From the sequence record NC_047890.1: a DNA stretch of 42,686 bases, one strand, 5' to 3'. This DNA is from Escherichia phage PGT2. Positions 16,333 through 35,712 of the stretch are shown in pieces (position 1 is the stretch's first letter; each line of letters starts with the position of its first letter). The translations under genes and the position numbers were made by a program. The notes under the pieces are model-generated. The model had not been told where the DNA came from. It did not search any database and worked only from the letters and a program-made list of their open reading frames with translations.

Positions 16333-17052
16333 ATGTTGTTAATGCTCTCTGGCGCGATTGGCGCTGGCAAAGATACCTTCGGTGAGTTCCTGTACGACTC
16401 ATTCGACAAGTTCGGCTACAGCGTGGAAGTGGTGAAGTTTGCCGACCCCATTCGTGAAGCTGCATTTAAGCTCGGATTCAATCCAGATGACCGGGCAACC
16501 AAGGAAGTCCCTGCAATACGCCATTATAAACTCTCAGAACTTGATGAGGCCATTTTTACTACTCATACCTGCCTGACACCTTACGAGCGCCGAATGGTCG
16601 CTGTACGAGTTCACCAGAGATTAATTAACATTCGCAAGGAGAAACATGATGGCATCTACAAGCCTGTCGTCAGTACGCGAGAATTTATGCAGGTCGTCGG
16701 TGGGACTGTACGAGACGCTAAAGAAGATTATTACATCCAGCACATGCTTCTCAATACACCAGAATCACGCGTTAACATCTGCACTGATACTCGGTTCATC
16801 AACGAGCAGCGAATTGGGGATTATTCGGTCTACGTTGAGCGCCCAAACAACCCGTTGGCGGTTCATACCCGCGACGCGTCGGAAGCAGCACAAGCGTTGC
16901 TCCGGGGGGCGGCGAAGAAAGTAATCCTGAACAACAGCACTCTGGATAATCTGGCTGAAGAAGCCGATTACGTGGCTACAACATTAATTTCAAAAGGGTA
17001 TTGTGATGACGCAGTTAAAGACGCAGGCGGAACTGGAATCTTTATCGAGTGA
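16333..17052 (+). CDS. P-loop deoxynucleoside monophosphate kinase-like protein
   Basis: N-terminal P-loop MLLMLSGAIGAGKDT resembles T4 dNMP kinase MKLIFLSGVKRSGKDT; strong SD tgagga. Confidence 0.6.
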   Translation: MLLMLSGAIGAGKDTFGEFLYDSFDKFGYSVEVVKFADPIREAAFKLGFNPDDRATKEVPAIRHYKLSELDEAIFTTHTCLTPYERRMVAVRVHQRLINIRKEKHDGIYKPVVSTREFMQVVGGTVRDAKEDYYIQHMLLNTPESRVNICTDTRFINEQRIGDYSVYVERPNNPLAVHTRDASEAAQALLRGAAKKVILNNSTLDNLAEEADYVATTLISKGYCDDAVKDAGGTGIFIE

Positions 17053-18976: not shown

Positions 18977-19062
18977 TACCCGGCCAAGGATGGCTACCTT
19001 CCCTCTCTATTTCGTCACCTACAATAGCACACAATACCCTCAAACTGTTCTTCTTGAACACT

Positions 19063-19095
19063 AGCCTTGGCCTCTTTGGTCAGGGCTATTTTTTC
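19063..19095 (+). terminator. Rho-independent terminator downstream of the RNA polymerase ORF
   Basis: 10-bp stem agccttggcc / ggtcagggct (two G-U pairs), loop tcttt, then attttttc. Confidence 0.65.
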
Positions 19096-19139
19096 TGATT
19101 TAGGGTATTTGTTAAATATGGCTTGAAGCCTTGATATAT

Positions 19140-19169
19140 GGGGTTTCCGCACATTATTTTAATAAGGGG
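19140..19169 (+). promoter_or_regulatory. Conserved 28-bp element GGGGTTTCCGCACATTAYTTTA(A)TAAGRG; candidate phage promoter or other regulatory site
   Basis: Near-identical copies at 173-200 and 42599-42626 (inside the terminal repeats); first 17 nt identical, then 1 mismatch and 1 indel. Confidence 0.4.
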
Positions 19170-19509
19170 TCCGGAGGGTGTTAAAATGTTCCTTAAATTT
19201 TACTTTGGTTAATTTCTAAGTTAAGCGAAAGCCAACTTAGTAAGGTAAGAGATTATTACCGGATTAGTGGTCCATACCGTAGTGAGTTAGAAAGACTACA
19301 TTCCCGGATTAGTGAGTTAGAGGGTGCTCTTTCCTCCTCAGAGTCTGTACCAGAACCTGTTACAGAAATATTCAGTAGAATGAACTATGAGGTGTACGAA
19401 TACTTTGAGCGTACAGTAAGTAATACTTCTGTAGCTAGTTCTACTACTGATTTAGAAGCTGGGTTTAAATTAGGTGTCCAGCATGTTCTCGCCAAGTTGA
19501 GGAATGGGT

Positions 19510-19938
19510 ATGTCACACCGCGAAGTCTCTGATTCTGATTGGGTAGCTAGTGTTCCTAAGTTGGTTGAGGCTATTTGCAACTCACCCAGCAGGATGATAT
19601 GTGATATTGACGTAGAGGCTACTCTGGCTCATTTTATGGCCGTAGCCACTCGTGGTGGTGCGTATATTGTCAAGGAGAAGTATCTGGTCGTATTCGACCG
19701 CTACAAGCTCTGGTATGCACCTACCAAGGATATTATCGAAGAGAAGATTGTCCTGTGTATTTACCCAGAAAATCCCGGCTCAATGTTCGATGTTGTCCGA
19801 TTTCTAATTGAACAACGTGATTACCTTGAAGCGAATCACTTGGTCATAGGTGACTTCCTGCACACTAATCAGGAAAAGTATGGTCGAGTCCTAACTAAAT
19901 TAGGGTTGACCAAAATCAACTCAGTTTACGCATGTTAG
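19510..19938 (+). CDS. Hypothetical protein (143 aa) in a compositionally atypical region
   Basis: SD gagga 6 nt before ATG 19510 (ATG 19504 is too close to the SD); no recognisable motif; region is more AT-rich than neighbours. Confidence 0.5.
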   Translation: MSHREVSDSDWVASVPKLVEAICNSPSRMICDIDVEATLAHFMAVATRGGAYIVKEKYLVVFDRYKLWYAPTKDIIEEKIVLCIYPENPGSMFDVVRFLIEQRDYLEANHLVIGDFLHTNQEKYGRVLTKLGLTKINSVYAC

Positions 19939-19948
19939 GAGGTTCCCA

Positions 19949-20551
19949 ATGGGAGGCTTACTCGGTGGCGGCGATAACGGTAAATCTCAAGCAAAGGCTA
20001 CCCGTGAAGCTGCCGAACGTCAGGCACAGGCAACATTGCAGGCCGCACGGGAGCAGATAGAGGCTCAGAACCGTCAGGCGGCTGCACAGCAACAATGGTC
20101 CAGTCAACAGGCCGCGCAACAGCGTGAGTTTGAGGCCCAGCTAAATCAGACCAATCAAGAATACCAATCAACCCTACAGGCACAACAGCTTGCTCAGCAG
20201 AAAGCACTCACTGAACAGACTAACGCCATTAACAAGGCGTATCAGGACAAGATGGCTAGTCTGCAACAGCAGGCCAACGAACAGCAGCAGTTTGAGTACA
20301 CCCAGCAGCTTTTACAGTCTTCCGCAGACGCACAGCGCCAGCAGGCACTGAAGGAAGCGCAGGATGCTACTTGGATGCCGCAGGAACAGGTTGAGGTTAC
20401 TCTGGCCGCAGATAGCTCTACGTATCTGGACGAGCAACGTCGTAGACGTCCCGTGAGCAACCTATACAATGGTGCAGGCAACGTGAACACGGCTTCGGCG
20501 AATGGGCAGTCTACGAGTGGCACAGGGCTTTCTAGTGGATTGAGGATTTAA
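19949..20551 (+). CDS. Gln/Ala-rich coiled-coil protein (200 aa), probable virion or assembly protein
   Basis: Strong SD aggagg; low-complexity Q/A-rich sequence; first gene of the structural block. Confidence 0.55.
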   Translation: MGGLLGGGDNGKSQAKATREAAERQAQATLQAAREQIEAQNRQAAAQQQWSSQQAAQQREFEAQLNQTNQEYQSTLQAQQLAQQKALTEQTNAINKAYQDKMASLQQQANEQQQFEYTQQLLQSSADAQRQQALKEAQDATWMPQEQVEVTLAADSSTYLDEQRRRRPVSNLYNGAGNVNTASANGQSTSGTGLSSGLRI

Positions 20552-20552
20552 T

Positions 20553-21491
20553 ATGACCGATGATGAAGCTCGCCAACTTGCTCAATGGGGCGAGGATGAA
20601 ATTGCCCGGATACTCGGACTGAACAGAAACTCATATTTGTCGGCACAGGGTCAGTCAGTAGCGGATTGGTCCAGCCGCTGGTCTTCCGGTCTAAATGACA
20701 TTTCTGGATATTATGACCAAGGTAAGGCTAACTCCCTGTACGCATCCCTTGGTGGGACTACATCGTCCACGTACCTTAACCAGTTGTCGATGCTGGCAGA
20801 GGAATCCAACAAGCTCTACACCTTAATTAATAACCCTAACGCAGTACACTCCAAGCTCCGGGAAGAGGCCGGGAGGCAAGGCGGTGTCGCGCAGTTCTCT
20901 ATCGGTATGGGTTATCGTACTGAAGGTAACGGTGGTTACGTTTACGACCTGATGGGCAACAGATTCAACGACATAACGATGAGTCCGCTGTACAAATCCT
21001 TGTATAGCATGGTTGATAGTTTTAGCAATCAGCAGGGTAAAATCGTCAATGAGTTGAACGCACAGCAGGGCCGTGAGCAGAACTATATCAGTCAGATTAG
21101 TGGTTTATTGCAGCAGGGTACGTTAGCAAAGACCAAAGCTGAACAGGAAGCTCAGAGGAAGGCGCTTGAAGAGCAGTATGCACAGCAACAGGAAGAATTG
21201 AACAAACAGGCTGCAGAGAATGCACGTATCCTCAAGGAGAAGCAGGAAGCTCAGACCAAGATGTTCAACGAGTCCGCTAAGGTTACGGCGGAATCCAACG
21301 CAGCGACATCCCAGCTTCAACAGGCCAAATCTGCTGCCACTCAGGTAGCCAATGTAGGTTCAGCCCGTGGTGGTGAGGCAATATCCTCAACCAACGCAGC
21401 CGCTAAATCAAAGACCAGACAAACCACGCGTACTGAACGCTGGCAGTCAACCCGCTCCCCAGCCGCTGGCGGTGGCGGCATCAACGTTTAA
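20553..21491 (+). CDS. Hypothetical virion-associated protein (312 aa) with Q/E-rich coiled-coil segment
   Basis: SD gagga; coiled-coil-like segment KTKAEQEAQRKALEEQYAQQQEELNKQAAE; immediately upstream of portal. Confidence 0.55.
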   Translation: MTDDEARQLAQWGEDEIARILGLNRNSYLSAQGQSVADWSSRWSSGLNDISGYYDQGKANSLYASLGGTTSSTYLNQLSMLAEESNKLYTLINNPNAVHSKLREEAGRQGGVAQFSIGMGYRTEGNGGYVYDLMGNRFNDITMSPLYKSLYSMVDSFSNQQGKIVNELNAQQGREQNYISQISGLLQQGTLAKTKAEQEAQRKALEEQYAQQQEELNKQAAENARILKEKQEAQTKMFNESAKVTAESNAATSQLQQAKSAATQVANVGSARGGEAISSTNAAAKSKTRQTTRTERWQSTRSPAAGGGGINV

Positions 21492-21502: not shown

Positions 21503-23056
21503 ATGACCAACGCAGACAACGCTGTACAATCAACCGTTACAGCGCCGTCTCGCTGGACTGAACTTGACGGGCAGAGACGTAGCCTAGTGCGTCGGTGGGA
21601 GTCGTATTCCATCTACACCATCCCCTACATCTGCCCTGATGAGAACTACCAGCAGGACACGGATGAAATGACCCACGACTTCCAAGCAGTGGGCGCACAA
21701 GCCGTGAACAGTCTCGCCAACAAAATCATGTTAGCTCTGTTCGCACCATCCAGACCATTCTTCAAACTCGACCCGGATGATGACACCAAGGAAGAGTTGA
21801 TGAAGGTTGGTATCGACCCAGACGCATTGAAAGATGTGTTCTCATCCTTGGAACTTCAGAGCGCAAAGCTGCTGGATACCAAGAATTTCCGCCCGGTAAT
21901 GTTCGAAATCATCAAGTCACTCATCGTCACTGGCAATAGCCTGATGGACTTAGGTAACGAAGTGGCATATGTCCGGGTACGTGATTTTGTAGTGAAGCGT
22001 GACTACTACGGTCGCCCATGCGAAATCATGATTAAGACCTGCCTCAAATTTGAGCAGTTGACCATGGACGTTCAGGAATCCTGCCAGCAGAAGAAGCCGC
22101 ATGGATACACCCCTGACACGAAGGTGGACGTTTACCGTTGGTACAAAGTGGATGAGACGGGTAAACGTATGAAGATGACTTACTGGATAGATGACCTCTC
22201 TCTGGAAGATGGCAAGTATCAAGGGGATTGGAAGAGGGAAGATTGTCCCGTCCGCCCACTGACTTGGTGTCTTACTGCGAATGCCGACTACGGAACTGGT
22301 CTGGTAGAGGAATACGCTGGCGACTTCGCCGCGCTATCCACGATGTCAACCTCTTTCGTTCAGGGTAGTGTTCTCGCTTCCGAGTTCCGCTGGCTCTCCA
22401 ACCCGGCTGGTATGACCCAACCGGAAGATGTCCGCGACTCAAATAACGGTGCAGTAATTCCCGGCGTCGAAGGCGACCTATCCCTTATCTCTGCTGGTCA
22501 GGGTATGGGGCAGACTCTCCAGATGATGATGAACGGGATGGACATCTACACCCGACGTATCAGTCAAGGATTCTTGATGATGTCCGGTGTTACCCGCGAT
22601 GCAGAACGTGTGACCGCCGAAGAGATTCGGATGCAGGCCAACGAACTGGAGAACTCGCTGGGTGGAGCGTATAGCCGACTGGCTATCGACATGCAGCTTC
22701 CAATTGCCAACTGGCTTCTGGATATGCAAGACCTGTCCATCAAAGGCGTCAAGATGAACGTATCCATCGTGACTGGCCTCAACGCACTGTCTCGTAATGG
22801 CGACCTTGATAATCTCAATGCTGCCGTAGGCAATATCACCGCAATGTACCAGATGCCGCCGTTGGCTATGCGACTGCTCAAAATGGATGCAGTCATCTCC
22901 GACATCATGGCAGGCCACGGCCTGTTGGCAGCCCGGTACGTCAAAACTCAAGCTGAAGTTGCTCAAGAAGAACAGCAGGCTCAACAGCAGGCTCTTGCTC
23001 AACAAGGCGCGGCAAACGTGGTAGACCAAGCCACGATGCCTCAACAACCAATGTGA
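21503..23056 (+). CDS. Portal (head-tail connector) protein
   Basis: AVGAQAVNSLANKIMLALF matches T7 gp8 AVGARGLNNLASKLMLALF; size and position fit. Confidence 0.85.
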   Translation: MTNADNAVQSTVTAPSRWTELDGQRRSLVRRWESYSIYTIPYICPDENYQQDTDEMTHDFQAVGAQAVNSLANKIMLALFAPSRPFFKLDPDDDTKEELMKVGIDPDALKDVFSSLELQSAKLLDTKNFRPVMFEIIKSLIVTGNSLMDLGNEVAYVRVRDFVVKRDYYGRPCEIMIKTCLKFEQLTMDVQESCQQKKPHGYTPDTKVDVYRWYKVDETGKRMKMTYWIDDLSLEDGKYQGDWKREDCPVRPLTWCLTANADYGTGLVEEYAGDFAALSTMSTSFVQGSVLASEFRWLSNPAGMTQPEDVRDSNNGAVIPGVEGDLSLISAGQGMGQTLQMMMNGMDIYTRRISQGFLMMSGVTRDAERVTAEEIRMQANELENSLGGAYSRLAIDMQLPIANWLLDMQDLSIKGVKMNVSIVTGLNALSRNGDLDNLNAAVGNITAMYQMPPLAMRLLKMDAVISDIMAGHGLLAARYVKTQAEVAQEEQQAQQQALAQQGAANVVDQATMPQQPM

Positions 23057-25701: not shown

Positions 25702-28332
25702 ATGGCGCGTGTTGAAGGTTCTTACGAATCAGTAGTTCGGGGCGTCTCTCAGCAGGTGCCACACCAACGTTTCTCAGGTCAGCACACTGACCAAAAAAAC
25801 TTACTTAGTGACCCGGTAGAGGGTCTGGTACGGCGCAGAGGTACTCGCCGCATATCAGAGCATCTTGTTACCCCGTCACTGACTGCCTCCGATATTGCAG
25901 AGATTCAAAAATATCGTACACACAAGTGGAACCCCGGTTCCGCTGGCGAACCCCTACAGGTTGCATATAAGGCCAAGCCCGGTGTTATAGGGGATAGCCG
26001 TCTGCTGTACATCATCAATCAGGTTACTCGGAACCGGGTTAACACTGCTGGTATAGACGCCGAGACTGATACGGTGTATCAGAAAGCGCGCGCTAACGGT
26101 CTGTCCGCCATAACCTCTGTAGGTCGTTACCTGTTCATGGCGGTAAACAATCATGTGGGCAGCGTGGCTGCGTCTCAGGATTACTTAGCAACAGCCAACC
26201 GCAATAAGGTTGTAGCATGGGTCCGTGGTGGGGCATATGCCCGTACATATACCGTGACCCTATTGCTGGATGCTGGTGGTCAATTGAAGTTCAGCTACAC
26301 CACAATGTCCTCGTCATATCCTACCTTGATTGACACCACTGCGGCTGGTAACACCACCGATACGGATTATCAGAATAAGCTGTCCAAGATAGTCGCCGAT
26401 TACAACTCGGCCACTACCAAGTGGATTTCGGACGCAGCCAAGGACATCGACGCGGAGAATATTGCCAACCGCTTATTGAACGGTCCAGCCACATCCGGTA
26501 ATACTGGTACTGGCACGGGTCTTATTGCAGCAAACGCTGCTGCCACTGGAATCAATAAAGTAACCAACCTGACATACGCGCTGGTTAGCTCCACGCTGTA
26601 TATTCAGGGCGACAACATTCGTGAGATAGTTGTTGACGATGGTGGCGACACGACACTGATTCGTGGCGTTGGTAATGAGGTAACGAGCGCGGACTTAGTA
26701 TCCACACGACACTTCTATGACAAGATTGTGAAGGTGCGTGCTAAGAAGTCGGACGACTCTGACGCATACTACCTGAAGGCAGAATCAAAGAACGATTCCA
26801 ATGACCCCGGTGTAACTGACCGTGGGGAGGTGGTCTGGAAAGAGTGTGCTGGATATACTCAGACGTTGACCAACCATTTCCTGTTCGGCTACTACCACAC
26901 CGATGGGGTCGTGTATGTTTCAAGCTCTCTTTCTAAGCTGTCTACTGCGCTTTCAATCACTACCCCGGTTCTCCAACCGAACCTTGCTGGGGATGATTTC
27001 ACCAACCCACCACCTAACTTCGGGACCAAGCAGATTAGTTACTTGGGTATGTTCCAAGACCGTCTTGTCGTGGGTTCGGGGGCAGTTGCTTCGTTCTCGC
27101 GGCCCGGAGATTACCTTAATTTCTTCCGACAATCAGTGCTCACGCTTACTGACACTGACCCGATTGACATGTTCGCACTCGGTGCCGAGGATGATGTTCT
27201 CCGACACTCGGCGTTGTTCGATAAGTCCTTATTCATCTTTGGTGACAAGCGACAATACGTAGTCAATGGGCGTACCGTCCTGACTCCGACCAACCAGAAC
27301 ATGACCGTGGTATCGCAGTTCCCGAACACTACCGGGGCGCAACCACAGGGTTCCGGCAACTTCATCTTCTATACGAAGCCCGGTGACACGAGTTCTCCAG
27401 TTATTACTCTCAACCAGATGCAGTATGGGCAGATTGCAGACTCCACGGAGTCCTATGACCTGTCTCAACAGTTAACTGACTTCTGTGCTGGGGTATGTGC
27501 TGAAATCGTTCCTGTGACCTCTCCAGCGGCTGTGTTGGTTCGTCCAGAGACATCGCAGAACTTGTACGTGTTCCGGTATACCGATGAGGTGGGTACTGGT
27601 CGTCGTATGCAGGCTGCATGGGACCGCTGGGAGTTCGACCCGGCATTCGGGACAATCATCTCTATGGCGACCTACGGCGATGAGATTCTGGCTATGGTTA
27701 TGCGTAGGGCCGAGGATGGTTCGACGTACCTGTGCGTTGAGCAGTTATCGTTACGACCTGCAAAAAGCAACGAACCATATTTCGACTCATATCAGGTGGC
27801 CACTGGTGTAGGTTCCGGGATTACCGTATCCTCTCCGTACCTGTTAGCAAGTCCGAACTTACTTAATCGCTGTTATGTTGCGGTTGTTGGTGGTAGCCAT
27901 GCTTTGACCGGGACCACGTATGAGGATCGTGCAGAACTGACAGCCTCTCAAATTGCCGATGGGACTTTGGCGGCGGGTATCCCGTTCGAATCTTCCTGCA
28001 TCCCAACCAACCCTTATCAGCGCGACCAGAATGGGAACGCTATTCTACAGGGTAGGCTGGTGCTGTCTCAGGTTCAAATATCCGTGCAGGAGACTGGGGC
28101 TATGGACGTATACGTGGCTGACGCTAACCGTGAGTGGTTATCGAAACACTTCAACGGGTTCCGCCTGTCTCGTACCGCATCTATGGTTGGTAGTCAACCT
28201 GTCGTGGACACCTCTATAACAGCATTGATTGGCCGAGAGGTCCGTGAATGCCGTTATCGCATTCAATCCGTTAAATTCCTGCCCATGGTGGTAACAGCCA
28301 TCTCGTGGCAGGGTCAATCATTTAGGAGATAA
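25702..28332 (+). CDS. Tail tubular protein B
   Basis: 876 aa; N-terminus resembles T7 gp12; synteny. Confidence 0.75.
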   Translation: MARVEGSYESVVRGVSQQVPHQRFSGQHTDQKNLLSDPVEGLVRRRGTRRISEHLVTPSLTASDIAEIQKYRTHKWNPGSAGEPLQVAYKAKPGVIGDSRLLYIINQVTRNRVNTAGIDAETDTVYQKARANGLSAITSVGRYLFMAVNNHVGSVAASQDYLATANRNKVVAWVRGGAYARTYTVTLLLDAGGQLKFSYTTMSSSYPTLIDTTAAGNTTDTDYQNKLSKIVADYNSATTKWISDAAKDIDAENIANRLLNGPATSGNTGTGTGLIAANAAATGINKVTNLTYALVSSTLYIQGDNIREIVVDDGGDTTLIRGVGNEVTSADLVSTRHFYDKIVKVRAKKSDDSDAYYLKAESKNDSNDPGVTDRGEVVWKECAGYTQTLTNHFLFGYYHTDGVVYVSSSLSKLSTALSITTPVLQPNLAGDDFTNPPPNFGTKQISYLGMFQDRLVVGSGAVASFSRPGDYLNFFRQSVLTLTDTDPIDMFALGAEDDVLRHSALFDKSLFIFGDKRQYVVNGRTVLTPTNQNMTVVSQFPNTTGAQPQGSGNFIFYTKPGDTSSPVITLNQMQYGQIADSTESYDLSQQLTDFCAGVCAEIVPVTSPAAVLVRPETSQNLYVFRYTDEVGTGRRMQAAWDRWEFDPAFGTIISMATYGDEILAMVMRRAEDGSTYLCVEQLSLRPAKSNEPYFDSYQVATGVGSGITVSSPYLLASPNLLNRCYVAVVGGSHALTGTTYEDRAELTASQIADGTLAAGIPFESSCIPTNPYQRDQNGNAILQGRLVLSQVQISVQETGAMDVYVADANREWLSKHFNGFRLSRTASMVGSQPVVDTSITALIGREVRECRYRIQSVKFLPMVVTAISWQGQSFRR

Positions 28333-28334
28333 CT

Positions 28335-29162
28335 ATGGGGTCTACTGGTGGCGGTGCCTTGGGCGGTGCTGCTGGCGGTGCTGCTGCCGGGTACTCCGTC
28401 GGGGGTCCGTGGGGCGCTGCGATTGGTGGCGCTCTCGGCCTTGTCTCTGGCCTGTTCTCCGGTAACAAAGAGAAAGCTCAGGCCCGGATAGCGAACGCAC
28501 AGCAACAAGCTCAGTACATCGTTCAGAACGCACAGGCTCAGGCTCAGACAATGCTGAGTCAGAACTCTGCGGCTGCTCAAAACTTGGTGGCATCGGGCAA
28601 TAACTTTCTGGCAGCAGCCAATGAAAGCGTTGCCCTGTACACCCAATCTCTAAACAACCAGCGGTCATATAAGGCTACTGGAGAAGCATACAATGCCCTT
28701 CAGGAGTCTATTGGTCGTTACAGCGACGATTACCTTCGTGGCACATTCCAACAGCGCCTACAGGCTTCTGAGATGTTAGGGCGCACAACGGCAGAGTTCG
28801 CTGCTGCCGGGGTTGGTGGTTCTACATCGCAACTCGTTAACCGGACCATGCGTCTTCAGGCTGGTGTGGCAGAAGAAGAGATGCGCATCGGTAATCGCTC
28901 GGCTATGTGGGACTTCGCTAAACAGCGAGGGGCGCTCACTGACCAAGCAGTCGATGGTACGCAGATGCTCGTCCAGCGTGACATGACAGGTTACGACCCG
29001 TCAGCCGGGTTCTACTTCGGTAACACTACGATTGGGCCGCAGGCTCCTGTCGGTACTCAGAACCTTAATAGCTGGAGCAATACACTCGGTTCCGTACTCG
29101 GTTCCGGTATGTCTGCATATAATACCGTCCAAGGTATGAGCGCATTAAGTAAACTCAAATAG
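28335..29162 (+). CDS. Internal virion protein (gp14-like) with Gly/Ala-rich hydrophobic N-terminus
   Basis: Synteny; N-terminus GALGGAAGGAAAGYSVGGPWGAAIGGALGLVSGLFSG. Confidence 0.6.
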   Translation: MGSTGGGALGGAAGGAAAGYSVGGPWGAAIGGALGLVSGLFSGNKEKAQARIANAQQQAQYIVQNAQAQAQTMLSQNSAAAQNLVASGNNFLAAANESVALYTQSLNNQRSYKATGEAYNALQESIGRYSDDYLRGTFQQRLQASEMLGRTTAEFAAAGVGGSTSQLVNRTMRLQAGVAEEEMRIGNRSAMWDFAKQRGALTDQAVDGTQMLVQRDMTGYDPSAGFYFGNTTIGPQAPVGTQNLNSWSNTLGSVLGSGMSAYNTVQGMSALSKLK

Positions 29163-29171
29163 TGAGGCTAT

Positions 29172-31490
29172 ATGGCAGGGCCAGAAACTTATTCAGTGAA
29201 TACGCAGCGGCAACAGGCTGCTGTTGCGCCACAGGGTCAATCTCTGATTCGCTCTACTGGCGCTGCCACTCGTCCCGCTACCGCTGCTCAACAGGGCAGC
29301 ATTTCTTATGTCGGGGCGCAAGTGGCAGAGGAATCCGCCGCGTCCCAATACTCCCGTGCACAGAGTGACAAGACAACGGACTGGCTGTTAAAGGCCGCTT
29401 CCGCCATCATCGAACCAAAGATGCAGGCTCTCCAGTCCCAACAGGTGATGAAGGGTATTCAGGAAGCGGCAGCAGGGAAGTCGATTGATGAGATTAAGGA
29501 CGCACCTCCGTGGTACTCCGCAATCTTCGGCGATAGCGATTTGGTTACTGCTGCCCGTGCTTATCAGGCACAGGCTGCGGTATCTAAGTTCGTAACCCAA
29601 GTACAGCGTGACATTCCGACGATGAACGACATGTCGCCGGAAGAAGCGCGGAACTACATGACCACCAAGTGGCAGGAGTTCCAGACCGGGGACATGATTA
29701 CGGATGCCGTAGCGAACCAACAGTTCCTCAATGCGGCACCGGGCTTGTTTGAACAATACAACAAGCAGAACTACAAGAACTGGCAGGAAACTGCCAAGGT
29801 TGCACAGCAGCAGGCGTACAGTGCCATGTCCGCCAGCTACAACCAGAAAGCCATGAGCTATGCGACGGACGGGACCATCTCCAAAGATGATCTTCTGAAA
29901 TCGCAGGTTGAGCTGATTAACGGTCTGTCCTCGGTTGATGGCCAGACTTTTGAGTCGTGGTCCAGCAACTTGGTATCCGCTGTGCAGGATGCTGTTAACA
30001 ATGGCAACTTCCATTCGGTGACGGCGATAACTTCCTCCGGCTTACTGGACAACTTACCCCCTGACCAACAGTCCGCTATAGGTTCCATGATTCGTGCTGG
30101 TGAAGCCAAATCCATTATGGATGTGAGAATCACTCCAGAATACTCATCTCAGATTGCGGACCTGCAATGGGAACTGCGTACCGGGCAACTCTCCCCGCAG
30201 GATGTATTTCAACGCACTGCGGTAATTAACGCCTCGGCCAAGGCCAAGTACGGGTACACGATGCCTCTAATCGGACCGGATGAGGTTGAGAGTTGGATGG
30301 GGACGTCAATTGGATTGTCGTCCAATGAGGTTAACCAATCCCGTACTCAGGCTATCTCCGACCAGAAACGTCTGGCTCAGAAGACTGCTGATGAGGCTGG
30401 TCGTCAGGATGCGGAACGTCGGGAACTACTGTTGGGTGGGAACCGCTTCTCTTCGGGTGGGCTTATTCCTCCGGGAGAATCCACTGACCCAGTTAAGAAA
30501 GCTGGTGCTGGTATGTTCGACCGTATGGAGAAGGTTAACCCCGGTAGCGGATATACGTCCCTAGTGAACCTCTACGCGAACAATAACGGTCTGGTCATCC
30601 CTACCCTACAGGCTCGCTTTCAGAGTGGCCTACAGACTTCTGACAAGACCGAATGGACGCCTGAGTTTGATGAGTCCACTACCAAGCCGTTTATGCAGAT
30701 GATAGCCCAGCATGGTGGTCATAATGCGGCTGTTCAGTATTTCGGTGCTGACGGCTACAAGAAGATGACCAACTACCTGTCTGCCATGAATAACGGTGTT
30801 CCGCAGCCACTGGCGTATCACGAAGCCTTTGTGGAACCGCAGCGTTTGGGAGATACATCCAACCTGACTAAAGAGGAGCAGAAGCTCTTAGGTAAGGAGT
30901 TGGATGTGGCGTGGTATGAACGTTTCTTCACGGATGGTAAGAGCGCTTCTGCCCGTGCTACCATCATGCACTCAGCCGCTGGTCACTATGCTGACCTGAA
31001 GGCAAACTCGCGGTACACGGATGACGACGAGCGAGCAAAGACAGCACTCAATCTGGCCCTAAATGATGGCAACATTGCCACGTATGGGCGCTGGGCGTGG
31101 GACCGGGATAAGTCTGCAAAACCTCTGCATGAGCAGGTTGGTTTGAGCAGCGACCAGACCTACGGTGTATTGTCTACGCATCTGGAACGTATGCCACAGT
31201 TCAAAGGAACCAATCTTGATAACGCCTCGTTCATTGAGCGGGTTGACTCCGATGGCAACTCAGACCTGCTGGTGTACGTCCCTACTGGGGATGGTAAGTT
31301 CCGCATCGGTAGCGTGTCCGCTGCTGACATCCGGGAAACGGCCAAGAGGATTCGTGATGCAGAACGTGAGAGTCGTATTAAGTTACGCACAGAACTCAAC
31401 AACCCTACCCTGCGCCGTGGTACTGGTGAAGGCTTAATTAATACTGGTGGCGGTACTGGACTATTCTCAGGCGGTACTGGACAACGTTAA
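29172..31490 (+). CDS. Internal virion protein (gp15-like)
   Basis: 772 aa, synteny and size comparable to T7 gp15. Confidence 0.6.
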   Translation: MAGPETYSVNTQRQQAAVAPQGQSLIRSTGAATRPATAAQQGSISYVGAQVAEESAASQYSRAQSDKTTDWLLKAASAIIEPKMQALQSQQVMKGIQEAAAGKSIDEIKDAPPWYSAIFGDSDLVTAARAYQAQAAVSKFVTQVQRDIPTMNDMSPEEARNYMTTKWQEFQTGDMITDAVANQQFLNAAPGLFEQYNKQNYKNWQETAKVAQQQAYSAMSASYNQKAMSYATDGTISKDDLLKSQVELINGLSSVDGQTFESWSSNLVSAVQDAVNNGNFHSVTAITSSGLLDNLPPDQQSAIGSMIRAGEAKSIMDVRITPEYSSQIADLQWELRTGQLSPQDVFQRTAVINASAKAKYGYTMPLIGPDEVESWMGTSIGLSSNEVNQSRTQAISDQKRLAQKTADEAGRQDAERRELLLGGNRFSSGGLIPPGESTDPVKKAGAGMFDRMEKVNPGSGYTSLVNLYANNNGLVIPTLQARFQSGLQTSDKTEWTPEFDESTTKPFMQMIAQHGGHNAAVQYFGADGYKKMTNYLSAMNNGVPQPLAYHEAFVEPQRLGDTSNLTKEEQKLLGKELDVAWYERFFTDGKSASARATIMHSAAGHYADLKANSRYTDDDERAKTALNLALNDGNIATYGRWAWDRDKSAKPLHEQVGLSSDQTYGVLSTHLERMPQFKGTNLDNASFIERVDSDGNSDLLVYVPTGDGKFRIGSVSAADIRETAKRIRDAERESRIKLRTELNNPTLRRGTGEGLINTGGGTGLFSGGTGQR

Positions 31491-31509
31491 TAACACATAG
31501 GAACCTCCG

Positions 31510-34500
31510 ATGAACTATACAGAACTTCGTGGTAAAACCTCCGACGAAATCTTTGAGGCTGTTGCCAAAGACACGGGGGTTCCTACTCAACTGCTGAAGA
31601 ACATGTGGCAGGTAGAATCTGGTGGCGGACAGAATATGAAGTCCCCCGCTGGTGCTGTCGGCCACATGCAAATTATGCCGCGCGAATTGGGCGTAATGCG
31701 TAAGACCTATGGTGAAGACCTCGACCCTATGAATTTGGCTGACTCGGTGTTTATGGCCGGGAAGATGCTCAAAGAAAACATGCAGCACTTTGGGAACATC
31801 CCCGATGCTGTATCCGCCTACAACGGCGGGTGGACTAAATCCCGATGGAGTAACCCAGAGACTTCGGCATACACCCCGAAGGTTCTCGCCGGAACAGGAA
31901 TCACCTTTGATGAACAAGGCACCCCGCACGTCGAGCAACCCTACACAACGAGCCGTGCTCAGATTGATTCGGTTCGTCCTGAACCTGTTGTTCAAGCGAA
32001 AACCTACTTAAATTCTGTAGAGAAGAACGCTATTGAACAGCAGATGTACAATAAGCAGCTTCAGGGTACTGACACCAATGAAGTTGTTAATGAGGCTGTT
32101 CAATTAAGTTTTAACCCGGAGGCTGCATTCGGTCTGGCTGATAGCCTATCCACTACACCTCCGGCAACCTCCTATGACAGCGCCGACCAAGCCATCGCCC
32201 TTGATGTGCAGGCGTCAGTCAAAGAGGCCACCCGTATTGCGAACACTACTGCCGGAGATGCCTTCTCCGCAGCATTCAAGCAATACTCGTTGACGGGTAC
32301 TGCTATGGAGGCGATGGCTAACACCACCGCCGATATAATGGACAAGCGCCAGCAGGTAGACCGGAAGTGGATTGAGGAGTACGAGGCAAAGCGTGAGCAG
32401 ATGATTAAAGGTCTGTCTCCCTATGCCGTTACTCAACTGGACCAAGCCCTTAACGCGCAGGAAGCGAAGGACATCGTGGACCGCGATAAGCGTGACCAAG
32501 TGGTCCAGCAGACTTTGAATGATTCTGGTCATCCAATCCTCTGGGGATTAACCGCAGGTATCCTTGACCCGGCTGGTTGGGTTGTTGGTGGGGGTGTAGG
32601 CAAGGCATTTATGCTTGGTAAAAGCGTCAGCATGGCTGCTCGCATGGGTAAGTTGGCCGCAGGTAACGCCGCAGGTAACGTGGCCGTTACTGGTGCTATG
32701 GATTTGTTGGGTGGCCAGATTACCCCTGACGACTATATCCATGCCGCTGCCTTTGGTTTGGCTACTGGTGCCGCTTTGGGAGCATTCTCTCGTGGCGACC
32801 GGGCGGCTATACAGCAGGCAGCAGCAGATATGCACGAAGCCGCAACAGCGCGTACTCAAGCGACCGTAGAACGCGCGGCGAAAGAGCACTACAAAATGTA
32901 CGCTGGTGTGGACCCGTTCGAAGCCACTGACCCAAATGCAATCGTACAGCTTCATCGTGGGAACACTGACCCTAGTAATGGTCCGGTGTGGTGGACTACC
33001 GACCGGGCTAAGGCCGCTGGGGATGGGGATGTTGACAGTATCTGGGTACGGGCCTCCGATATACAAACTAAGGGAGTGGCTGGTCCTAACGGCCCTGATG
33101 AAGTGGTATTCCAAACTGACCCTCGTTCGTTTGCTGTAGGCGGGCCGAGTGCTGAGGATTTGGCCCAGACAGCAGCTAAGATGTCTGAGCGTGAGATTAT
33201 GGATACTGTTGACCAAGTGCTCACTCAACCTACTGCTGAATCCAAAGTGTTCCAGCCACGGGACATCGACCCGGTAGAGACTGGTCGCCTACAGCAGCAG
33301 TACAGTCTGGATAGTGTAACCGATGAGCATCGCTTGTCATCCATCAACTCCCTGTACAAATCCGCTGAAGACTTCATCGCCGCCAACAAGGATAAGATTC
33401 GTCATACGGCTATTACCAACCAGAAGTACCGTCCCATATCCGATGCTCTCGGCTTTCGTTCCGCTAGTAACGAGTTAATCTCCGATGACAACTATCTGGC
33501 GAAGGTTTTGGGTATGGTGGTAGCTGAGGATACCGCTGGCATTTCTGGTGTCCGTGGGGTTACTGTGGCGATTAAATCTCGCTTACTGAACAACCACGTC
33601 AACCTGAACATTGAACGCGGTATCCACGAGAACTATACCGCTTACCTAAAGGCCAAGGGCGTTGGTCGCGTTAAAGGTGCTTTAGAAACCTACACCACCG
33701 GGAAGAACATTACCGAGTTCTATGCACAGGTTGCAGCAGAGATTCGTAACCGGGCCAACCCGATGTTCGTATCCACTGCACATCGTTCCGTACAGCAAGC
33801 AGCCAACGTACTGGAAGATGGCTTCCAGCGCATGGGTGACCTTCAGCGCATGGCTAAGACTCTGGGGCACGAGTTCATACCAACCAGTTCCCGTGGCTAC
33901 CTGCCGCAGCAACTGAATGGTAAGGCATTCGCCGCATTGTCTGGTGCAGAGAAGCGTCAGGTTCAACAGGAGTTCATCCGACAGGCTACCAAAGATTTTG
34001 GGTGGGATACAGAGTTCGCCTCTAAGAAGGTGGCCGAGTACATGAACCGTGCTGAGGATGCTGCTACGCCTGCTGGCCGGATGAATCCATCTGCTGGTAA
34101 AGACCTGATGGGTATGTTGATGGAAGAGTTGGATAACCCCAATCTGGCCCCTGACCAGTACATGCAGATTCTTGAGCGTCTCCGTTCTGGTGCTGCAAAG
34201 CATACCAACAAACGCCTTGACTGGGATTTGAACGCAACTATCCGTATGGATAACGGTGACATGATTCCTCTGTCCTCCCTGTACAATAACGACGTACTGT
34301 CACTGTACAAAGGGTACGCCAACCGGGTATCCGGTGACGTAGCATTCGCTCATGTAGGAATTTATGGCGACCGTGACATACGTATGATTACCGAGGCACT
34401 CCAGAGGAGCAAAGTTGGCGACCCTACGAAAACCATCCCGGCTTGGCAGCAAGTCGTCAACGAAGTTTACCAGCGCCCTACTGCCACTGACGCTGGTGGT

Positions 34501-35712
34501 AATCTCTCCACTTCTGCTCGTTTTATTCGTCAGTATACTGGCATTCGTTTACTCGGCGGAGTAGCGTTCATGCAGTTAGGGGAGATGGCCAATACCATCT
34601 CTCACTTGGGCGTAGGTGTGTTTATGAAGTTCCTCCCAGCCGTTCCTCGTCTCCTGAAAGAGGCAAAGGCTCTCAAGGCGGGTCAGATACCAGAGAACAG
34701 TGTTATGTGGTCTGTGGACTCCATAGCAGGTTCTCCGTTGGGTGTTGAGCAGTTCCAGATGGTAATGCCGCAGGTTATTGACGAAGGTCTGTCCATTGTG
34801 GACCAGCGTTCATTCAATACTGTGATGCGTGCTATGGGCGGTGCTCAGTTGCTGCATAACAAGTTCTCCTTCATGCGTGCTGTAACGGTGGTGCAGCAGC
34901 GTTTCGTTGGTAATGAAATCGTCATGAAGGCTATGCGCTACATGCGTGATGGTACGGATGACGTGGCTTTACGTGATATGGGTATCACACCAGAACTGGC
35001 AGCTAAGTTCCGTGCAGAGATGGGGAATATTGCCGAGTTCACTGAGAGCGGCCACCTGAAGGCGTTGAACCTCTACCATATGAAGGATATGGATGCTGTG
35101 GCGGAGTTCATTACGGCGGTACGTCGTGGGACCGGGCAAATCATTCAGGATACCTTCCCCGGCGAGACTGGTAAGTGGATGCGTTCGGAGATTGGTCAGT
35201 TACTGATGCAGTTCCGTAAATTCCCTTCCGTAGCCATTGAGAAGCAGTACATGCGTCAGTACGGTAAGTTTGGGTTCACCAAAGCTCTGGGCGGCACACT
35301 AGCTGCTATGGGTATTGGCACCTTTCTTTACTATGGCCGCGCTATGGTTGCTGCATCCTTGCTCGGAGAGAGTGAGCGCGAGAAGTTCTTAGAGGCACGT
35401 CTGGCACCTGCATCCGTAGCGAGTGGGGCGTTGATGTACGTATCCAACTTGGGTATGCTCAGCGACTTCCTACAGCTTGGTAGTGGTGTTGGGAACATGC
35501 TGGACGACTCTATGGACTTAGGCTGGACACACGGGCGGGGTATTCCAGCACAAGGTATCGGTGGGGTAATCCCATCCCTTGGTACGCTGAGCGATGCCTA
35601 CAACCTGACTCAACAACCTTCTGTGAACGGTGCGTTGAAACTACTCCCATTCACAAACTTGCCTATGGTTCTTCCGATAATCAATGCAATCAAGCATTCG
35701 GATGACGACTAA
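31510..35712 (+). CDS. Internal virion protein (gp16-like) with N-terminal lytic transglycosylase domain
   Basis: N-terminal SLT-type motif MWQVESGGGQNMKSPAGAVGHMQIMP; 1400 aa; synteny. Confidence 0.8.
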   Translation: MNYTELRGKTSDEIFEAVAKDTGVPTQLLKNMWQVESGGGQNMKSPAGAVGHMQIMPRELGVMRKTYGEDLDPMNLADSVFMAGKMLKENMQHFGNIPDAVSAYNGGWTKSRWSNPETSAYTPKVLAGTGITFDEQGTPHVEQPYTTSRAQIDSVRPEPVVQAKTYLNSVEKNAIEQQMYNKQLQGTDTNEVVNEAVQLSFNPEAAFGLADSLSTTPPATSYDSADQAIALDVQASVKEATRIANTTAGDAFSAAFKQYSLTGTAMEAMANTTADIMDKRQQVDRKWIEEYEAKREQMIKGLSPYAVTQLDQALNAQEAKDIVDRDKRDQVVQQTLNDSGHPILWGLTAGILDPAGWVVGGGVGKAFMLGKSVSMAARMGKLAAGNAAGNVAVTGAMDLLGGQITPDDYIHAAAFGLATGAALGAFSRGDRAAIQQAAADMHEAATARTQATVERAAKEHYKMYAGVDPFEATDPNAIVQLHRGNTDPSNGPVWWTTDRAKAAGDGDVDSIWVRASDIQTKGVAGPNGPDEVVFQTDPRSFAVGGPSAEDLAQTAAKMSEREIMDTVDQVLTQPTAESKVFQPRDIDPVETGRLQQQYSLDSVTDEHRLSSINSLYKSAEDFIAANKDKIRHTAITNQKYRPISDALGFRSASNELISDDNYLAKVLGMVVAEDTAGISGVRGVTVAIKSRLLNNHVNLNIERGIHENYTAYLKAKGVGRVKGALETYTTGKNITEFYAQVAAEIRNRANPMFVSTAHRSVQQAANVLEDGFQRMGDLQRMAKTLGHEFIPTSSRGYLPQQLNGKAFAALSGAEKRQVQQEFIRQATKDFGWDTEFASKKVAEYMNRAEDAATPAGRMNPSAGKDLMGMLMEELDNPNLAPDQYMQILERLRSGAAKHTNKRLDWDLNATIRMDNGDMIPLSSLYNNDVLSLYKGYANRVSGDVAFAHVGIYGDRDIRMITEALQRSKVGDPTKTIPAWQQVVNEVYQRPTATDAGGNLSTSARFIRQYTGIRLLGGVAFMQLGEMANTISHLGVGVFMKFLPAVPRLLKEAKALKAGQIPENSVMWSVDSIAGSPLGVEQFQMVMPQVIDEGLSIVDQRSFNTVMRAMGGAQLLHNKFSFMRAVTVVQQRFVGNEIVMKAMRYMRDGTDDVALRDMGITPELAAKFRAEMGNIAEFTESGHLKALNLYHMKDMDAVAEFITAVRRGTGQIIQDTFPGETGKWMRSEIGQLLMQFRKFPSVAIEKQYMRQYGKFGFTKALGGTLAAMGIGTFLYYGRAMVAASLLGESEREKFLEARLAPASVASGALMYVSNLGMLSDFLQLGSGVGNMLDDSMDLGWTHGRGIPAQGIGGVIPSLGTLSDAYNLTQQPSVNGALKLLPFTNLPMVLPIINAIKHSDDD

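What the first reader, a model, noticed from the sequence alone, without database searches (positions are those of the whole stretch)
19949..21491. Two adjacent Gln/Ala/Glu-rich coiled-coil proteins at the head of the structural module
ORF 19949 (200 aa) and ORF 20553 (312 aa) both contain long Q/A/E-rich predicted coiled-coil segments and immediately precede the portal gene. Their role (virion component, assembly factor or ejection protein) is unclear.
Basis: partly seen in the sequence, partly recalled or inferred. Interest (0 to 1): 0.3.

Follow-up and report, generated by a model that had tools for sequence, protein, structure and literature searches.

The report
Two tail-channel ejection proteins before portal
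The two genes just before the portal gene of this phiKT-like coliphage most likely encode small virion proteins of the T7 gp7.3 kind, which sit in the tail channel and are expelled at infection; one is an ordinary long member and the other an unusual version with an extra unknown domain, so this is a modest variant of a known thing.

Summary
Both ORFs are real at the stated coordinates. They are intact in phage phiKT (95% identical genome), where they were never annotated, and under purifying selection (dN/dS 0.17 and 0.09). They are Gln/Ala-rich, predicted to form very long helices, and directly precede the portal gene. A classical heptad coiled coil is not shown.

ORF1 (200 aa) is a long member of the gp7.3-like family encoded 5' of the portal gene across Autographiviridae (T7 gp7.3, phiKMV gp29, Ar-KM gp34). 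It has the N-terminal MGGLLGGG..K, an A/Q-rich helix, an acidic VEVTL stretch, an RRRR cluster and a C-terminal G-L-R-I.

ORF2 (312 aa) belongs to a tiny family of 13 metagenomic relatives. It joins an orphan 165-residue N-terminal domain to a gp7.3-like rod and an invariant C-terminal tail ending GGGGI(N/R)x. That tail matches the only ordered, nozzle-bound segment of T7 gp7.3 (SSGGGINI).

Standard profile methods (Pfam, hhalign) do not detect domain-level homology. The case rests on synteny, architecture and a strongly enriched C-terminal motif.

Best reading: two virion-resident, ejected tail-channel or core factors. This is a new variant of a known kind, and virion presence is untested.

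The parts
19504..19938 (+). Context: 144-aa homologue of phiKT gp14, at the position of the GNAT-like / T7 gp7-like gene that precedes the gp7.3-like gene in relatives
   Evidence: phrog_37045 and phrog_6472. JG068 gp29 and Cd1 ADD21663 fall in phrog_6472. The chain phrog_6472 - 1249 (acetyltransferase: SP6 gp28, phiKMV gp28) - 3986 - 2746 (T7 gp7, GAP227 gp31) links these families.
19949..20551 (+). ORF1, 200 aa: long member of the gp7.3-like tail-channel / ejection-factor family
   Evidence: phrog_9212 at E=5.8e-6. Same architecture as Cd1 ADD21664, Lullwater gp31, Prado gp31, GAP227 gp32, JG068 gp31, phiKMV gp29 and T7 gp7.3.
19949..19996 (+). ORF1 N-terminal Gly-rich/basic motif MGGLLGGGDNGKSQAK (residues 1-16)
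   Evidence: Aligned with MGGLFGGGAKKAAK (Cd1) and MGSLVGGGSAKKAALK (Prado) in A2. Similar N-termini occur in L028, L062 and L068.
19976..20368 (+). ORF1 Q/A-rich rod free of Gly and Pro, predicted as a single long helix (residues 10-140)
   Evidence: AF2 gives H10-140 at pLDDT 91-98. No G or P between residues 12 and 143, and no significant heptad signal.
20381..20446 (+). ORF1 acidic 'QEQVEVTLAADSSTYLDEQ' stretch followed by the RRRR cluster (residues 145-166)
   Evidence: Aligned with the (V/I)-(D/E)-(V/I)-x-L ... RRR module of relatives in A2 and A8. Net charge is -5 for residues 141-162, then +5 for residues 163-200.
20519..20548 (+). ORF1 extreme C-terminal tail GTGLSSGLRI (residues 191-200), the putative docking peptide
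   Evidence: The strict motif G[ILV][NRQ][ILV]$ is found in 14/62 non-redundant portal-upstream proteins against 1/613 background ORFs (Fisher p=1e-14). In the window only ORF1 and ORF2 carry it, out of 263 segments.
20553..21491 (+). ORF2, 312 aa: orphan N-terminal domain fused to a gp7.3-like rod and C-terminal tail
20553..21047 (+). ORF2 N-terminal domain (residues 1-165). Invariant GYYD, LG..S, N..Y and D..LY positions; no detectable relatives outside the family.
   Evidence: A1 and A6 alignments. No Pfam, PHROG, NCBIfam or PDB sequence match. AF2 confidence is low and Foldseek is null.
21048..21356 (+). ORF2 Q/A/E-rich helical rod (residues 166-268)
   Evidence: AF2 helix 145-287. Aligns weakly but selectively with the Q/A-rich centres of gp7.3-like proteins: 16 of the 19 best non-self hits.
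21357..21488 (+). ORF2 conserved C-terminal tail GSARGGEAISSTNAAAKSKTRQTTRTERWQSTRSPAAGGGGINV (residues 269-312), a basic cluster plus GGGGI(N/R)x
   Evidence: This is the most conserved part of the family: 22 invariant positions in the 49 residues aligned in A7, and 66% identity to L093 against 37% for the N-terminal domain. It matches the T7 gp7.3 C-terminus ...ARSSGGGINI, which is the ordered nozzle-bound loop (PMC11784390).
21503..23056 (+). Context: portal (head-tail connector) gene
   Evidence: PF12236 at E=2.5e-57 and phrog_449. Matches the T7 portal in PDB at E=9e-55.
25702..28332 (+). Context: tail tubular protein B (nozzle), the putative docking partner
   Evidence: phrog_457. Homologous to the T7 gp12 nozzle (E=2e-17) and to the phiKMV-like nozzle 9s0y_AA (E=1.7e-29).
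28335..35712 (+). Context: three internal virion (ejectosome) proteins of 275, 772 and 1400 aa, at the positions of T7 gp14, gp15 and gp16
   Evidence: phrog_5745, phrog_3883 and phrog_342, all 'internal virion protein'.

Best explanation
ORF1 and ORF2 are late, co-transcribed and translationally coupled structural genes. They encode two members of the 'gp7.3-like' class of small podovirus virion proteins.

What is shown here:
- Both genes are real and under constraint.
- ORF1 has the family's position and full architecture.
- ORF2 combines an orphan N-terminal domain with a family-like helical rod, a basic cluster and a C-terminal tail.
- Both end in the G-[IL]-[NR]-[IV] motif that marks portal-upstream proteins across Autographiviridae.

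What is inferred from T7 and Ar-KM structures: during assembly the C-terminal tail docks on the inner wall of the tail at the adaptor/nozzle junction (as T7 gp7.3 residues 84-98 do between adjacent gp12 subunits) or on the portal-barrel/gp14-like core (as Ar-KM gp34 does). The adjacent Arg/Lys cluster faces the leading DNA end, and the long polar helix lies along the portal-tail lumen. On adsorption the nozzle opens and these proteins leave first. They then help keep the nozzle open so that the gp14/15/16-like internal proteins can exit and build the trans-envelope channel.

The ORF2 N-terminal domain would be extra cargo or a plug carried on the same anchor. Its activity is unknown.
For: - The genes are real. 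They are intact in phiKT with dN/dS of 0.17 and 0.09, have SD sites and coupled stop/start codons, and are conserved as a pair in L093.
- Synteny is conserved. The order RNAP - small protein - GNAT/gp7-like - gp7.3-like - portal is seen in T7, SP6, phiKMV, Cd1, Lullwater, GAP227, Prado and JG068.
- The architecture aligns.
- A PHROG chain links ORF1 to phrog_9212, then GAP227 gp32 and JG068 gp31 to phrog_6529, then weakly to phrog_1320, which holds T7 gp7.3 and SP6 gp29.
- The C-terminal motif is strongly enriched: strict form 14/62 against 1/613, p=1e-14; loose form 35/62 against 13/613, p=7e-31. In the window it occurs only in ORF1 and ORF2.
- The ORF2 tail is the most conserved part of its family.
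- In an ORF2 profile search, 16 of the 19 best non-self hits are gp7.3-like ORFs.
- Experimental anchors exist. T7 gp7.3 has its C-terminal loop bound to the nozzle and is ejected (PMC11784390; PDB 9jyz_1). The phiKMV gp29 homologue is deposited as 'tail channel protein' 9s0y_AE. Ar-KM gp34 is described as an 'ejection wedge', and portal-upstream ORFs of 45-450 aa are generalised across 205 genera (preprint).
- The nozzle and the three internal virion proteins are present in the window.
- Tandem pairs with the same C-terminal ending exist elsewhere: JG068 gp30 and gp31, and fHe-Yen3-01.
Against: - No domain-level homology is detectable. Pfam PF11653 does not match either ORF even at E<=10.
- hhalign aligns only the last 7-10 residues, at probability 10-27% and P=7e-4 to 3e-3.
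- PDB sequence searches do not retrieve gp7.3 or 9s0y_AE.
- ORF1 and ORF2 show no pairwise similarity.
- The ORF2 N-terminus is acidic, not basic, and ORF1's is only weakly basic.
- At 312 aa per copy, ORF2 is large for the tail lumen.
- There are no virion proteomics for phiKT-like phages.
- The ORF1 match to phrog_9212 and the ORF2 rod hits could be partly compositional.
- T7 and Ar-KM place their proteins at different sites, so the docking site here is uncertain.
Confidence: 0.6

Rival explanations
1. ORF2, and possibly ORF1, is a morphogenetic factor that acts only during assembly, as a chaperone or scaffold for joining portal, core, adaptor and nozzle. It would not be a stable or ejected virion component.
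For: T7 gp7.3 is described as needed for assembling infective particles and as a 'structural scaffold' for mounting the nozzle on the adaptor (PMC11784390). The gene lies next to the portal and scaffolding genes. ORF2 is large for a channel resident.
Against: In T7 and in phiKMV-like phages the counterparts are physically present in virions. The invariant C-terminal tail looks like a docking peptide that would persist in the particle.
Confidence: 0.2
2. The pair corresponds functionally to the two T7 proteins gp6.7 and gp7.3. [quoted passage not shown] The other would be the tail-channel protein.
For: T7 encodes two such small ejected proteins upstream of the portal. Many marine relatives have two tandem small ORFs that mix gp6.7-like MC... 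N-termini with gp7.3-like C-termini. Ar-KM gp34 sits on the portal barrel with the gp14-like protein, as T7 gp6.7 does.
Against: Neither ORF has the MCF..PK N-terminus of gp6.7 or matches PF17570 or phrog_1391. Both carry the gp7.3-type C-terminus, not the gp6.7-type.
Confidence: 0.15
3. These are not functional genes, or are generic low-complexity coiled-coil fillers. The phiKT depositors left the region unannotated and placed a promoter in it.
For: The phiKT record has no CDS across 1.56 kb and annotates a 'P2 promoter' inside ORF2. The sequences are low-complexity and have no Pfam match.
Against: Both ORFs are intact and of equal length in phiKT, with dN/dS of 0.09-0.17. Both are conserved with sharply conserved termini at 45-72% identity in L093. 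ORF2 has 13 homologues down to 39% identity. SD sites are present. The sigma-70 scan finds no hit at the annotated P2 position; the only hit inside either ORF is a weak 9/12 match near the end of ORF1.
Confidence: 0.03

Closest known systems
T7 gp7.3 (Protein 7.3, 'host specificity protein B'; Pfam PF11653 VirionAssem_T7; PDB 9jyz chain 1)
   Same: - Encoded upstream of the portal gene and after the gp7-like gene; in T7 the HNH gene 7.7 lies between gene 7.3 and the portal gene 8.
- Begins with MG.
- Low-complexity centre, then an acidic stretch, then a basic cluster.
- C-terminus G-G-I-N-I (ORF2: GGGGINV; ORF1: SSGLRI). In T7 this C-terminal loop is the ordered part bound between nozzle subunits.
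   Different: - 99 aa against 200 and 312 aa.
- The T7 N-terminus is strongly Lys-rich; ORF1's is Gly-rich and weakly basic, and ORF2's is acidic and carries an extra domain.
- There is no Pfam or hhalign-level homology.
phiKMV gp29 / Ar-KM gp34 'ejection wedge' (PDB 9s0y_AE 'tail channel protein'; phrog_3112)
   Same: - Same gene position.
- Helical, with an A/Q-rich centre, an acidic stretch, an RRRR cluster and a C-terminal ..LGINY.
- Ar-KM gp34 is shown in virions and in open nozzles, and proposed as conserved across Autographivirales with sizes of 45-450 aa (preprint 10.64898/2026.05.18.726046).
   Different: - 98 aa.
- A single gene, not a pair.
- Observed on the portal barrel and gp14-like ring rather than at the adaptor/nozzle junction.
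- No significant direct sequence match to ORF1 or ORF2.
PHROG 9212 / 6529 proteins (JG068 gp31, GAP227 gp32, Prado gp31, Cd1 ADD21664, Lullwater gp31 'plectin 1')
   Same: These are the closest sequence relatives of ORF1. They share the MG(G/S)L.GGG..KK N-terminus, the Q/A rod, the VEV(T/D)L - RRR module and the G(L/I)R(L/I) end. Lullwater gp31 is equally long, at 203 aa.
   Different: Most are 104-140 aa. Apart from JG068 gp31, whose partner is gp30, none is followed by an ORF2-like gene.
Burkholderia phage JG068 gp30 + gp31, and Yersinia phage fHe-Yen3-01 tandem ORFs
   Same: Two adjacent genes before the portal gene, both ending in the same C-terminal motif (..ATGIRIS and ..MTGIRLS..EGLRL and ..GTGIRL). 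JG068 gp30 also has an extra N-terminal region ahead of a Q/A rod.
   Different: In JG068 the order is reversed, with the extended protein first. The extra N-terminal regions are unrelated to that of ORF2.

Membership tests
T7 gp7.3 family (Pfam PF11653 VirionAssem_T7) | Match to the family HMM above the gathering score | tested here: not met
   Neither ORF matches PF11653, even at E<=10. T7 gp7.3 itself scores 204.7 bits.
T7 gp7.3 family (Pfam PF11653 VirionAssem_T7) | Profile-profile homology to T7-like gp7.3 sequences | tested here: inconclusive
   hhalign of A5 against A4 aligns only the last 10 residues, at P=0.002 and probability 14%. A7 against A8 gives P=0.003 over 7 residues.
T7 gp7.3 family (Pfam PF11653 VirionAssem_T7) | Gene located 5' of the portal gene and downstream of the gp7-like gene | tested here: met
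   The upstream neighbour is linked to T7 gp7 through a PHROG chain.
T7 gp7.3 family (Pfam PF11653 VirionAssem_T7) | C-terminal nozzle-binding loop (T7 residues 84-98, KKSLSVARSSGGGIN) | tested here: met
   At motif level only. ORF2 has ...RSPAAGGGGINV and ORF1 has ...GTGLSSGLRI. The strict motif is enriched 14/62 against 1/613. Actual binding was not tested.
T7 gp7.3 family (Pfam PF11653 VirionAssem_T7) | Present in virions and ejected into the cell at infection | not testable with these tools
   Needs virion LC-MS/MS, cryo-EM or ejection assays on phiKT.
gp7.3-like 'ejection wedge' class as defined in the Ar-KM preprint (four features) | Short ORF directly preceding the portal gene (typically 100-140 aa, range 45-450) | tested here: met
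   ORF2 (312 aa) directly precedes the portal gene and ORF1 (200 aa) is one gene further upstream.
gp7.3-like 'ejection wedge' class as defined in the Ar-KM preprint (four features) | Predicted to be highly helical | tested here: met
   AF2 gives ORF1 H10-140 and ORF2 H145-287, plus low-confidence helices in the ORF2 N-terminal domain. These are single-sequence models.
gp7.3-like 'ejection wedge' class as defined in the Ar-KM preprint (four features) | Positively charged N- and C-terminal segments | tested here: inconclusive
   The C-terminal segments are +5 in both. The ORF1 N-terminus is only +1 over residues 1-20. ORF2 opens with an acidic MTDDEARQLAQWGEDE, and residues 1-165 carry a net charge of -4.
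gp7.3-like 'ejection wedge' class as defined in the Ar-KM preprint (four features) | Central low-complexity A/Q/P region followed by an acidic stretch before the C-terminal basic cluster | tested here: met
   ORF1 meets this fully. ORF2 has the A/Q/E rod and the basic cluster, but its acidic stretch is weak.
PHROG 9212 / 6529 (unnamed; gp7.3-position proteins of Cd1-, Prado-, GAP227- and JG068-type phages) | HMM match | tested here: met
   ORF1 matches phrog_9212 at E=5.8e-6 over residues 7-89. ORF2 has no PHROG match. JG068 gp31 scores 2e-31 and GAP227 gp32 scores 1e-9 to the same family.
Canonical (heptad) coiled-coil proteins | Significant a/d hydrophobic heptad periodicity along the helix | tested here: not met
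   For ORF1 the best 28-residue window is no better than shuffles (fraction 0.48). For ORF2 the signal is weak (0.08), at residues 137-158 and 189-199. This was a home-made test, not COILS or MARCOIL.
T7 gp6.7 family (Pfam PF17570) | HMM match and MCF.PK N-terminus | tested here: not met
   No Pfam or PHROG match. The N-termini are MGGLLGGG and MTDDEARQ.

The most novel reading that the evidence does not exclude
ORF1 and ORF2 form a length-matched heteromeric helical rod inside the portal-tail lumen. Both would be anchored by the same C-terminal docking peptide on the nozzle, making an internal, ejectable plug or ruler. The orphan 165-residue N-terminal domain of ORF2 would then be the first phage protein delivered to the host envelope.

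Three hints point this way:
- The predicted rods are of similar length (131 and 143 residues).
- In the only distant relative with both genes available (L093), each rod carries an 18-residue insertion, which is five alpha-helical turns, about 31-35 residues before the end of the helix.
- JG068 gp30 and gp31 look, by eye, as if their Q/A-rich regions are also of similar length, roughly 70-75 residues each (not measured).
Probability: 0.15. Interest if true: 0.6.

Novelty: new variant of a known kind. Interest (0 to 1): 0.35.

Why it matters
gp7.3-type factors are essential in T7, but they diverge so fast that authors report they cannot be found by homology in other podophages (Peru-2 and Ar-KM preprints).

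This analysis gives a simple, statistically supported sequence hallmark. It is an extreme C-terminal G-[ILV]-polar-[ILV] tail preceded by a basic cluster, and it coincides with the segment of T7 gp7.3 that is seen bound to the nozzle. It therefore offers a testable docking-peptide hypothesis across Autographiviridae.

It also adds two missing genes to the annotation of the reference phage phiKT, a model for spanin-less lysis.

Finally, it shows that the anchor can carry extra domains or occur in tandem pairs, as in ORF2 and JG068 gp30. That suggests a modular way of loading additional proteins into the tail channel for ejection.

Tried and rejected
- Pfam, NCBIfam and PHROG scans of ORF2 and its N-terminal domain found nothing beyond coiled-coil noise such as SMC and TolA.
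- PDB sequence searches with the ORF2 family, the ORF2 N-terminal domain and the ORF1 family found no significant hit.
- Foldseek of the ORF2 model against PDB was null, and the model is of low confidence.
- tblastn of both ORFs against 50,697 phage records found only phiKT.
- An IMG/VR scan with the ORF2 profile found only the window itself and phiKT. A scan of GTDB genomes found nothing.
For these reasons the N-terminal domain fold and the ORF1 partners of the +29 clade could not be examined.
- Recent duplication of ORF1 to give ORF2 is rejected: BLASTP shows no similarity.
- Homology between the extra N-terminal regions of ORF2 and JG068 gp30 is rejected.
- An internal promoter or terminator splitting the pair is rejected. 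The scan finds no hit at the 'P2' position annotated in phiKT (about 21009-21058 in the window), and the terminator-like hit at 21139-21155 is on the minus strand.
Full report
**What the window is.** The 42,686-bp window is a close relative (about 95% nucleotide identity) of Escherichia phage phiKT (Autographiviridae, Ermolevavirus). The finding's two ORFs exist exactly as described: ORF1 at 19949-20551 (200 aa) and ORF2 at 20553-21491 (312 aa), on the + strand. They are followed by the portal gene (21503-23056; PF12236 E=2.5e-57), then scaffold, major capsid, adaptor, nozzle and three internal virion proteins. Upstream lie the RNA polymerase gene, a strong terminator-like hairpin, an AT-rich spacer, a small conserved ORF and a 144-aa protein homologous to phiKT gp14.

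**Are they genes?** Yes.
- The phiKT GenBank and RefSeq records annotate no CDS across the equivalent 1.56 kb and instead place a predicted 'P2 promoter' inside ORF2. Even so, both ORFs are intact there at identical lengths.
- Against phiKT, dN/dS is 0.17 for ORF1 and 0.09 for ORF2. Both have Shine-Dalgarno sites, and the ORF2 start is 1 nt after the ORF1 stop.
- A metagenomic contig (L093, JACCDR010862451) with 82% portal identity carries the same cassette: RNAP, small ORF, gp14-like, ORF1-like (214 aa), ORF2-like (338 aa), portal.
- ORF2 has 13 homologues down to 39% identity, all metagenomic and none named.

**Composition and structure.**
- ORF1 is 21% Gln and 16% Ala, with no Gly or Pro between residues 12 and 143. 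AF2 (single sequence) predicts one helix spanning residues 10-140 at pLDDT >90.
- ORF2 is Q/A/E-rich only in residues 161-280, with a predicted helix at 145-287. Its first 165 residues form a separate, conserved, non-Q/A/E-rich region that is poorly modelled.
- A heptad periodicity test against shuffles is null for ORF1 and weak for ORF2. 'Long polar helix' is therefore supported, and 'coiled coil' is not.

**What ORF1 is.** In T7, SP6, phiKMV, Cd1, Lullwater, GAP227, Prado and JG068, the gene before the portal gene follows a GNAT-like / T7 gp7-like gene. In T7 the HNH gene 7.7 sits between it and the portal gene. It encodes a small protein with a consistent layout:
- an MG... N-terminus
- a low-complexity A/Q-rich centre
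- a (V/I)-(D/E)-(V/I)-x-L acidic stretch
- an Arg/Lys cluster
- a C-terminus of the form G-(L/I)-(R/N/Q)-(L/I)

ORF1 aligns with these along its termini (A2, A8). Its N-terminus MGGLLGGG..K matches Cd1 MGGLFGGG..KK and Prado MGSLVGGG..KK. Its module QEQVEVTLAAD...RRRR matches EQVEVDV...RRR. Its C-terminus is SSGLRI.

ORF1 matches phrog_9212 (E=5.8e-6), the family of JG068 gp31 (2e-31) and GAP227 gp32 (1e-9). Those proteins also match phrog_6529 and, weakly, phrog_1320, the family of T7 gp7.3 and SP6 gp29.

**What ORF2 is.** Its most conserved segment is the last 44 residues, RGGEA..STN...TRTERWQSTR.PA.GGGGI(N/R)x. Identity to L093 there is 66%, against 37% for the N-terminal domain. The T7 gp7.3 C-terminus is ...KKSLSVARSSGGGINI.

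In a search of 6,561 ORF segments from 90 related loci with the ORF2 profile, 16 of the 19 best non-self hits are the gp7.3-like ORFs next to the portal gene. They align to ORF2 residues around 190-285. ORF2 therefore reads as an orphan N-terminal domain fused to a gp7.3-like rod, basic cluster and tail.

The N-terminal domain has no Pfam, PHROG, NCBIfam, PDB-sequence or Foldseek relative. ORF1 and ORF2 are not recent duplicates of each other.

**The C-terminal motif is not chance.** I took the ORF ending next to the portal gene in 62 non-redundant Autographiviridae-like loci from IMG/VR.
- 14 of the 62 end in the strict pattern G[ILV][NRQ][ILV], against 1 of 613 other long ORFs (Fisher p=1e-14). 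That single background hit is itself a tandem family member.
- The looser pattern gives 35/62 against 13/613 (p=7e-31).
- Among 263 stop-to-stop segments of at least 60 aa in the window, only ORF1 and ORF2 carry the strict motif.

**Limits of the homology claim.** Pfam PF11653 matches neither ORF. hhalign aligns only the last 7-10 residues, with P=7e-4 to 3e-3 and probability 10-27%. PDB sequence searches do not link them to gp7.3 or to the phiKMV-type protein. I therefore do not file them as PF11653 members. The claim is the same position, the same architecture and the same terminal peptide.

**Mechanism, from published structures.**
- In mature T7, only residues 84-98 of gp7.3 are ordered. 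Six copies are each anchored between two adjacent gp12 nozzle subunits at the adaptor/nozzle junction. K84 and K85 contact the DNA end, and the rest is disordered around the DNA. The protein is ejected at infection and is needed for infective, adsorbing particles (PMC11784390; PDB 9jyz_1).
- In the phiKMV-like phage Ar-KM, gp34 is 98 aa, the same length as phiKMV gp29, and occupies the same portal-upstream position. It is present in eight copies on the portal barrel and gp14-like ring. After triggering, six copies wedge the nozzle open.
- The same preprint notes that portal genes in 205 Autographivirales genera are preceded by small helical ORFs of 45-450 aa with basic ends and an A/Q/P-rich centre (10.64898/2026.05.18.726046).
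- A phiKMV gp29 homologue is deposited as 'tail channel protein' (9s0y_AE).
- The window encodes homologues of the nozzle (T7 gp12 E=2e-17; 9s0y_AA E=1.7e-29) and of the three internal virion proteins.

By inference, ORF1 and ORF2 are incorporated through their C-terminal tails, lie along the portal-tail lumen or core, and are expelled first to help open the nozzle and build the ejectosome. The role of the ORF2 N-terminal domain is unknown.

**Tandem pairs elsewhere.**
- JG068 gp30 (204 aa, with an extra N-terminal region, ending ...ATGIRIS) sits beside gp31 (136 aa, ending ...MTGIRLS).
- Yersinia phage fHe-Yen3-01 has a 131-aa ORF (...EGLRL) followed by a 59-aa ORF (...GTGIRL).
- Several marine contigs also carry two such genes.

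Pairing is therefore recurrent. The ORF2 family itself is confined to phiKT-like phages.

**A lead, not a result.** Relative to the window, L093 has an 18-residue insertion in the ORF1 rod (after residue 108) and an 18-residue insertion in the ORF2 rod (after about residue 238). Each lies about 31-35 residues before the end of the helix. This is one event only. It is compatible with rods whose lengths co-vary.

**Verdict.** The interpretation narrows to gp7.3-like virion and ejection factors. ORF1 is a new, long member of a known kind, and ORF2 is a new variant (anchor plus orphan domain, in tandem). The general concept was already published in 2024-2026, so interest is moderate.

Noticed in passing
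window 17003-18976 (junction near 18897/18899): The T7-type RNA polymerase gene carries an in-frame 501-bp deletion relative to phiKT, giving 657 aa against 823 aa. Judged against the intact L093 RNAP, about 167 residues are missing, including palm motif C (FAMVHDDYGTH), so the enzyme is predicted to be catalytically dead. This could be a defective genome, a deletion mutant or an assembly artefact.
   Followed up: partly
phiKT record NC_019520 / JN882298, 15331-16894 (equivalent to window 19949-21491): The reference phiKT records annotate no CDS for either gene. They place an NNPP-predicted 'P2 promoter' (16401-16450) inside what is a conserved ORF. The reference annotation is missing two genes.
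   Followed up: yes
L093 5962-7624 against window 19949-21491: There are matched 18-residue insertions in the helical rods of both the ORF1-like and ORF2-like proteins of a distant relative. The ORF2 family also has a clade with a 29-residue insertion (P0010, P0011), whose ORF1 partners could not be retrieved.
   Followed up: partly
window 19062-19350: A strong terminator-like hairpin (19062-19088, followed by a T-run) lies after the RNAP gene. It is followed by an AT-rich spacer (GC about 0.42) with direct repeats CCGGATTAGTG (19259 and 19304) and TAGTGAGTTAGA (19280 and 19310). These are candidate phage-promoter or regulatory elements at the start of the late region.
   Followed up: no
window 19380-19532: A small ORF upstream of the GNAT-like gene ends in ...LEAGFKLGVQHVLAKLRNGYV. 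The same motif recurs in the equivalent small ORF of Lullwater, Cd1, GAP227 and Prado, and in looser form in SP6, phiKMV and many marine podophage contigs. This is a widely conserved but uncharacterised small protein. Its start codon is uncertain: phiKT annotates 131 aa.
   Followed up: no
window 19949-21491 against the flanking genes: ORF1 and ORF2 are the most diverged genes between the window and phiKT in this region. Their nucleotide identity is 94% and 92%, with dS of 0.18 and 0.30. The gp14-like and portal genes are at 98-99%, with dS of 0.05 and 0.08. This suggests faster evolution or recombination at this locus.
   Followed up: partly
loci L012, L036, L038-L040, L043-L046, L059, L060, L083, L084 (upstream of the portal gene): Many portal-upstream small proteins combine a T7 gp6.7-like N-terminus (MCF/MCL..P.P, Cys at position 2) with a gp7.3-like C-terminus (..SGLNIP.). 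They often occur as two tandem genes. This hints that gp6.7 and gp7.3 belong to one diversified class.
   Followed up: no
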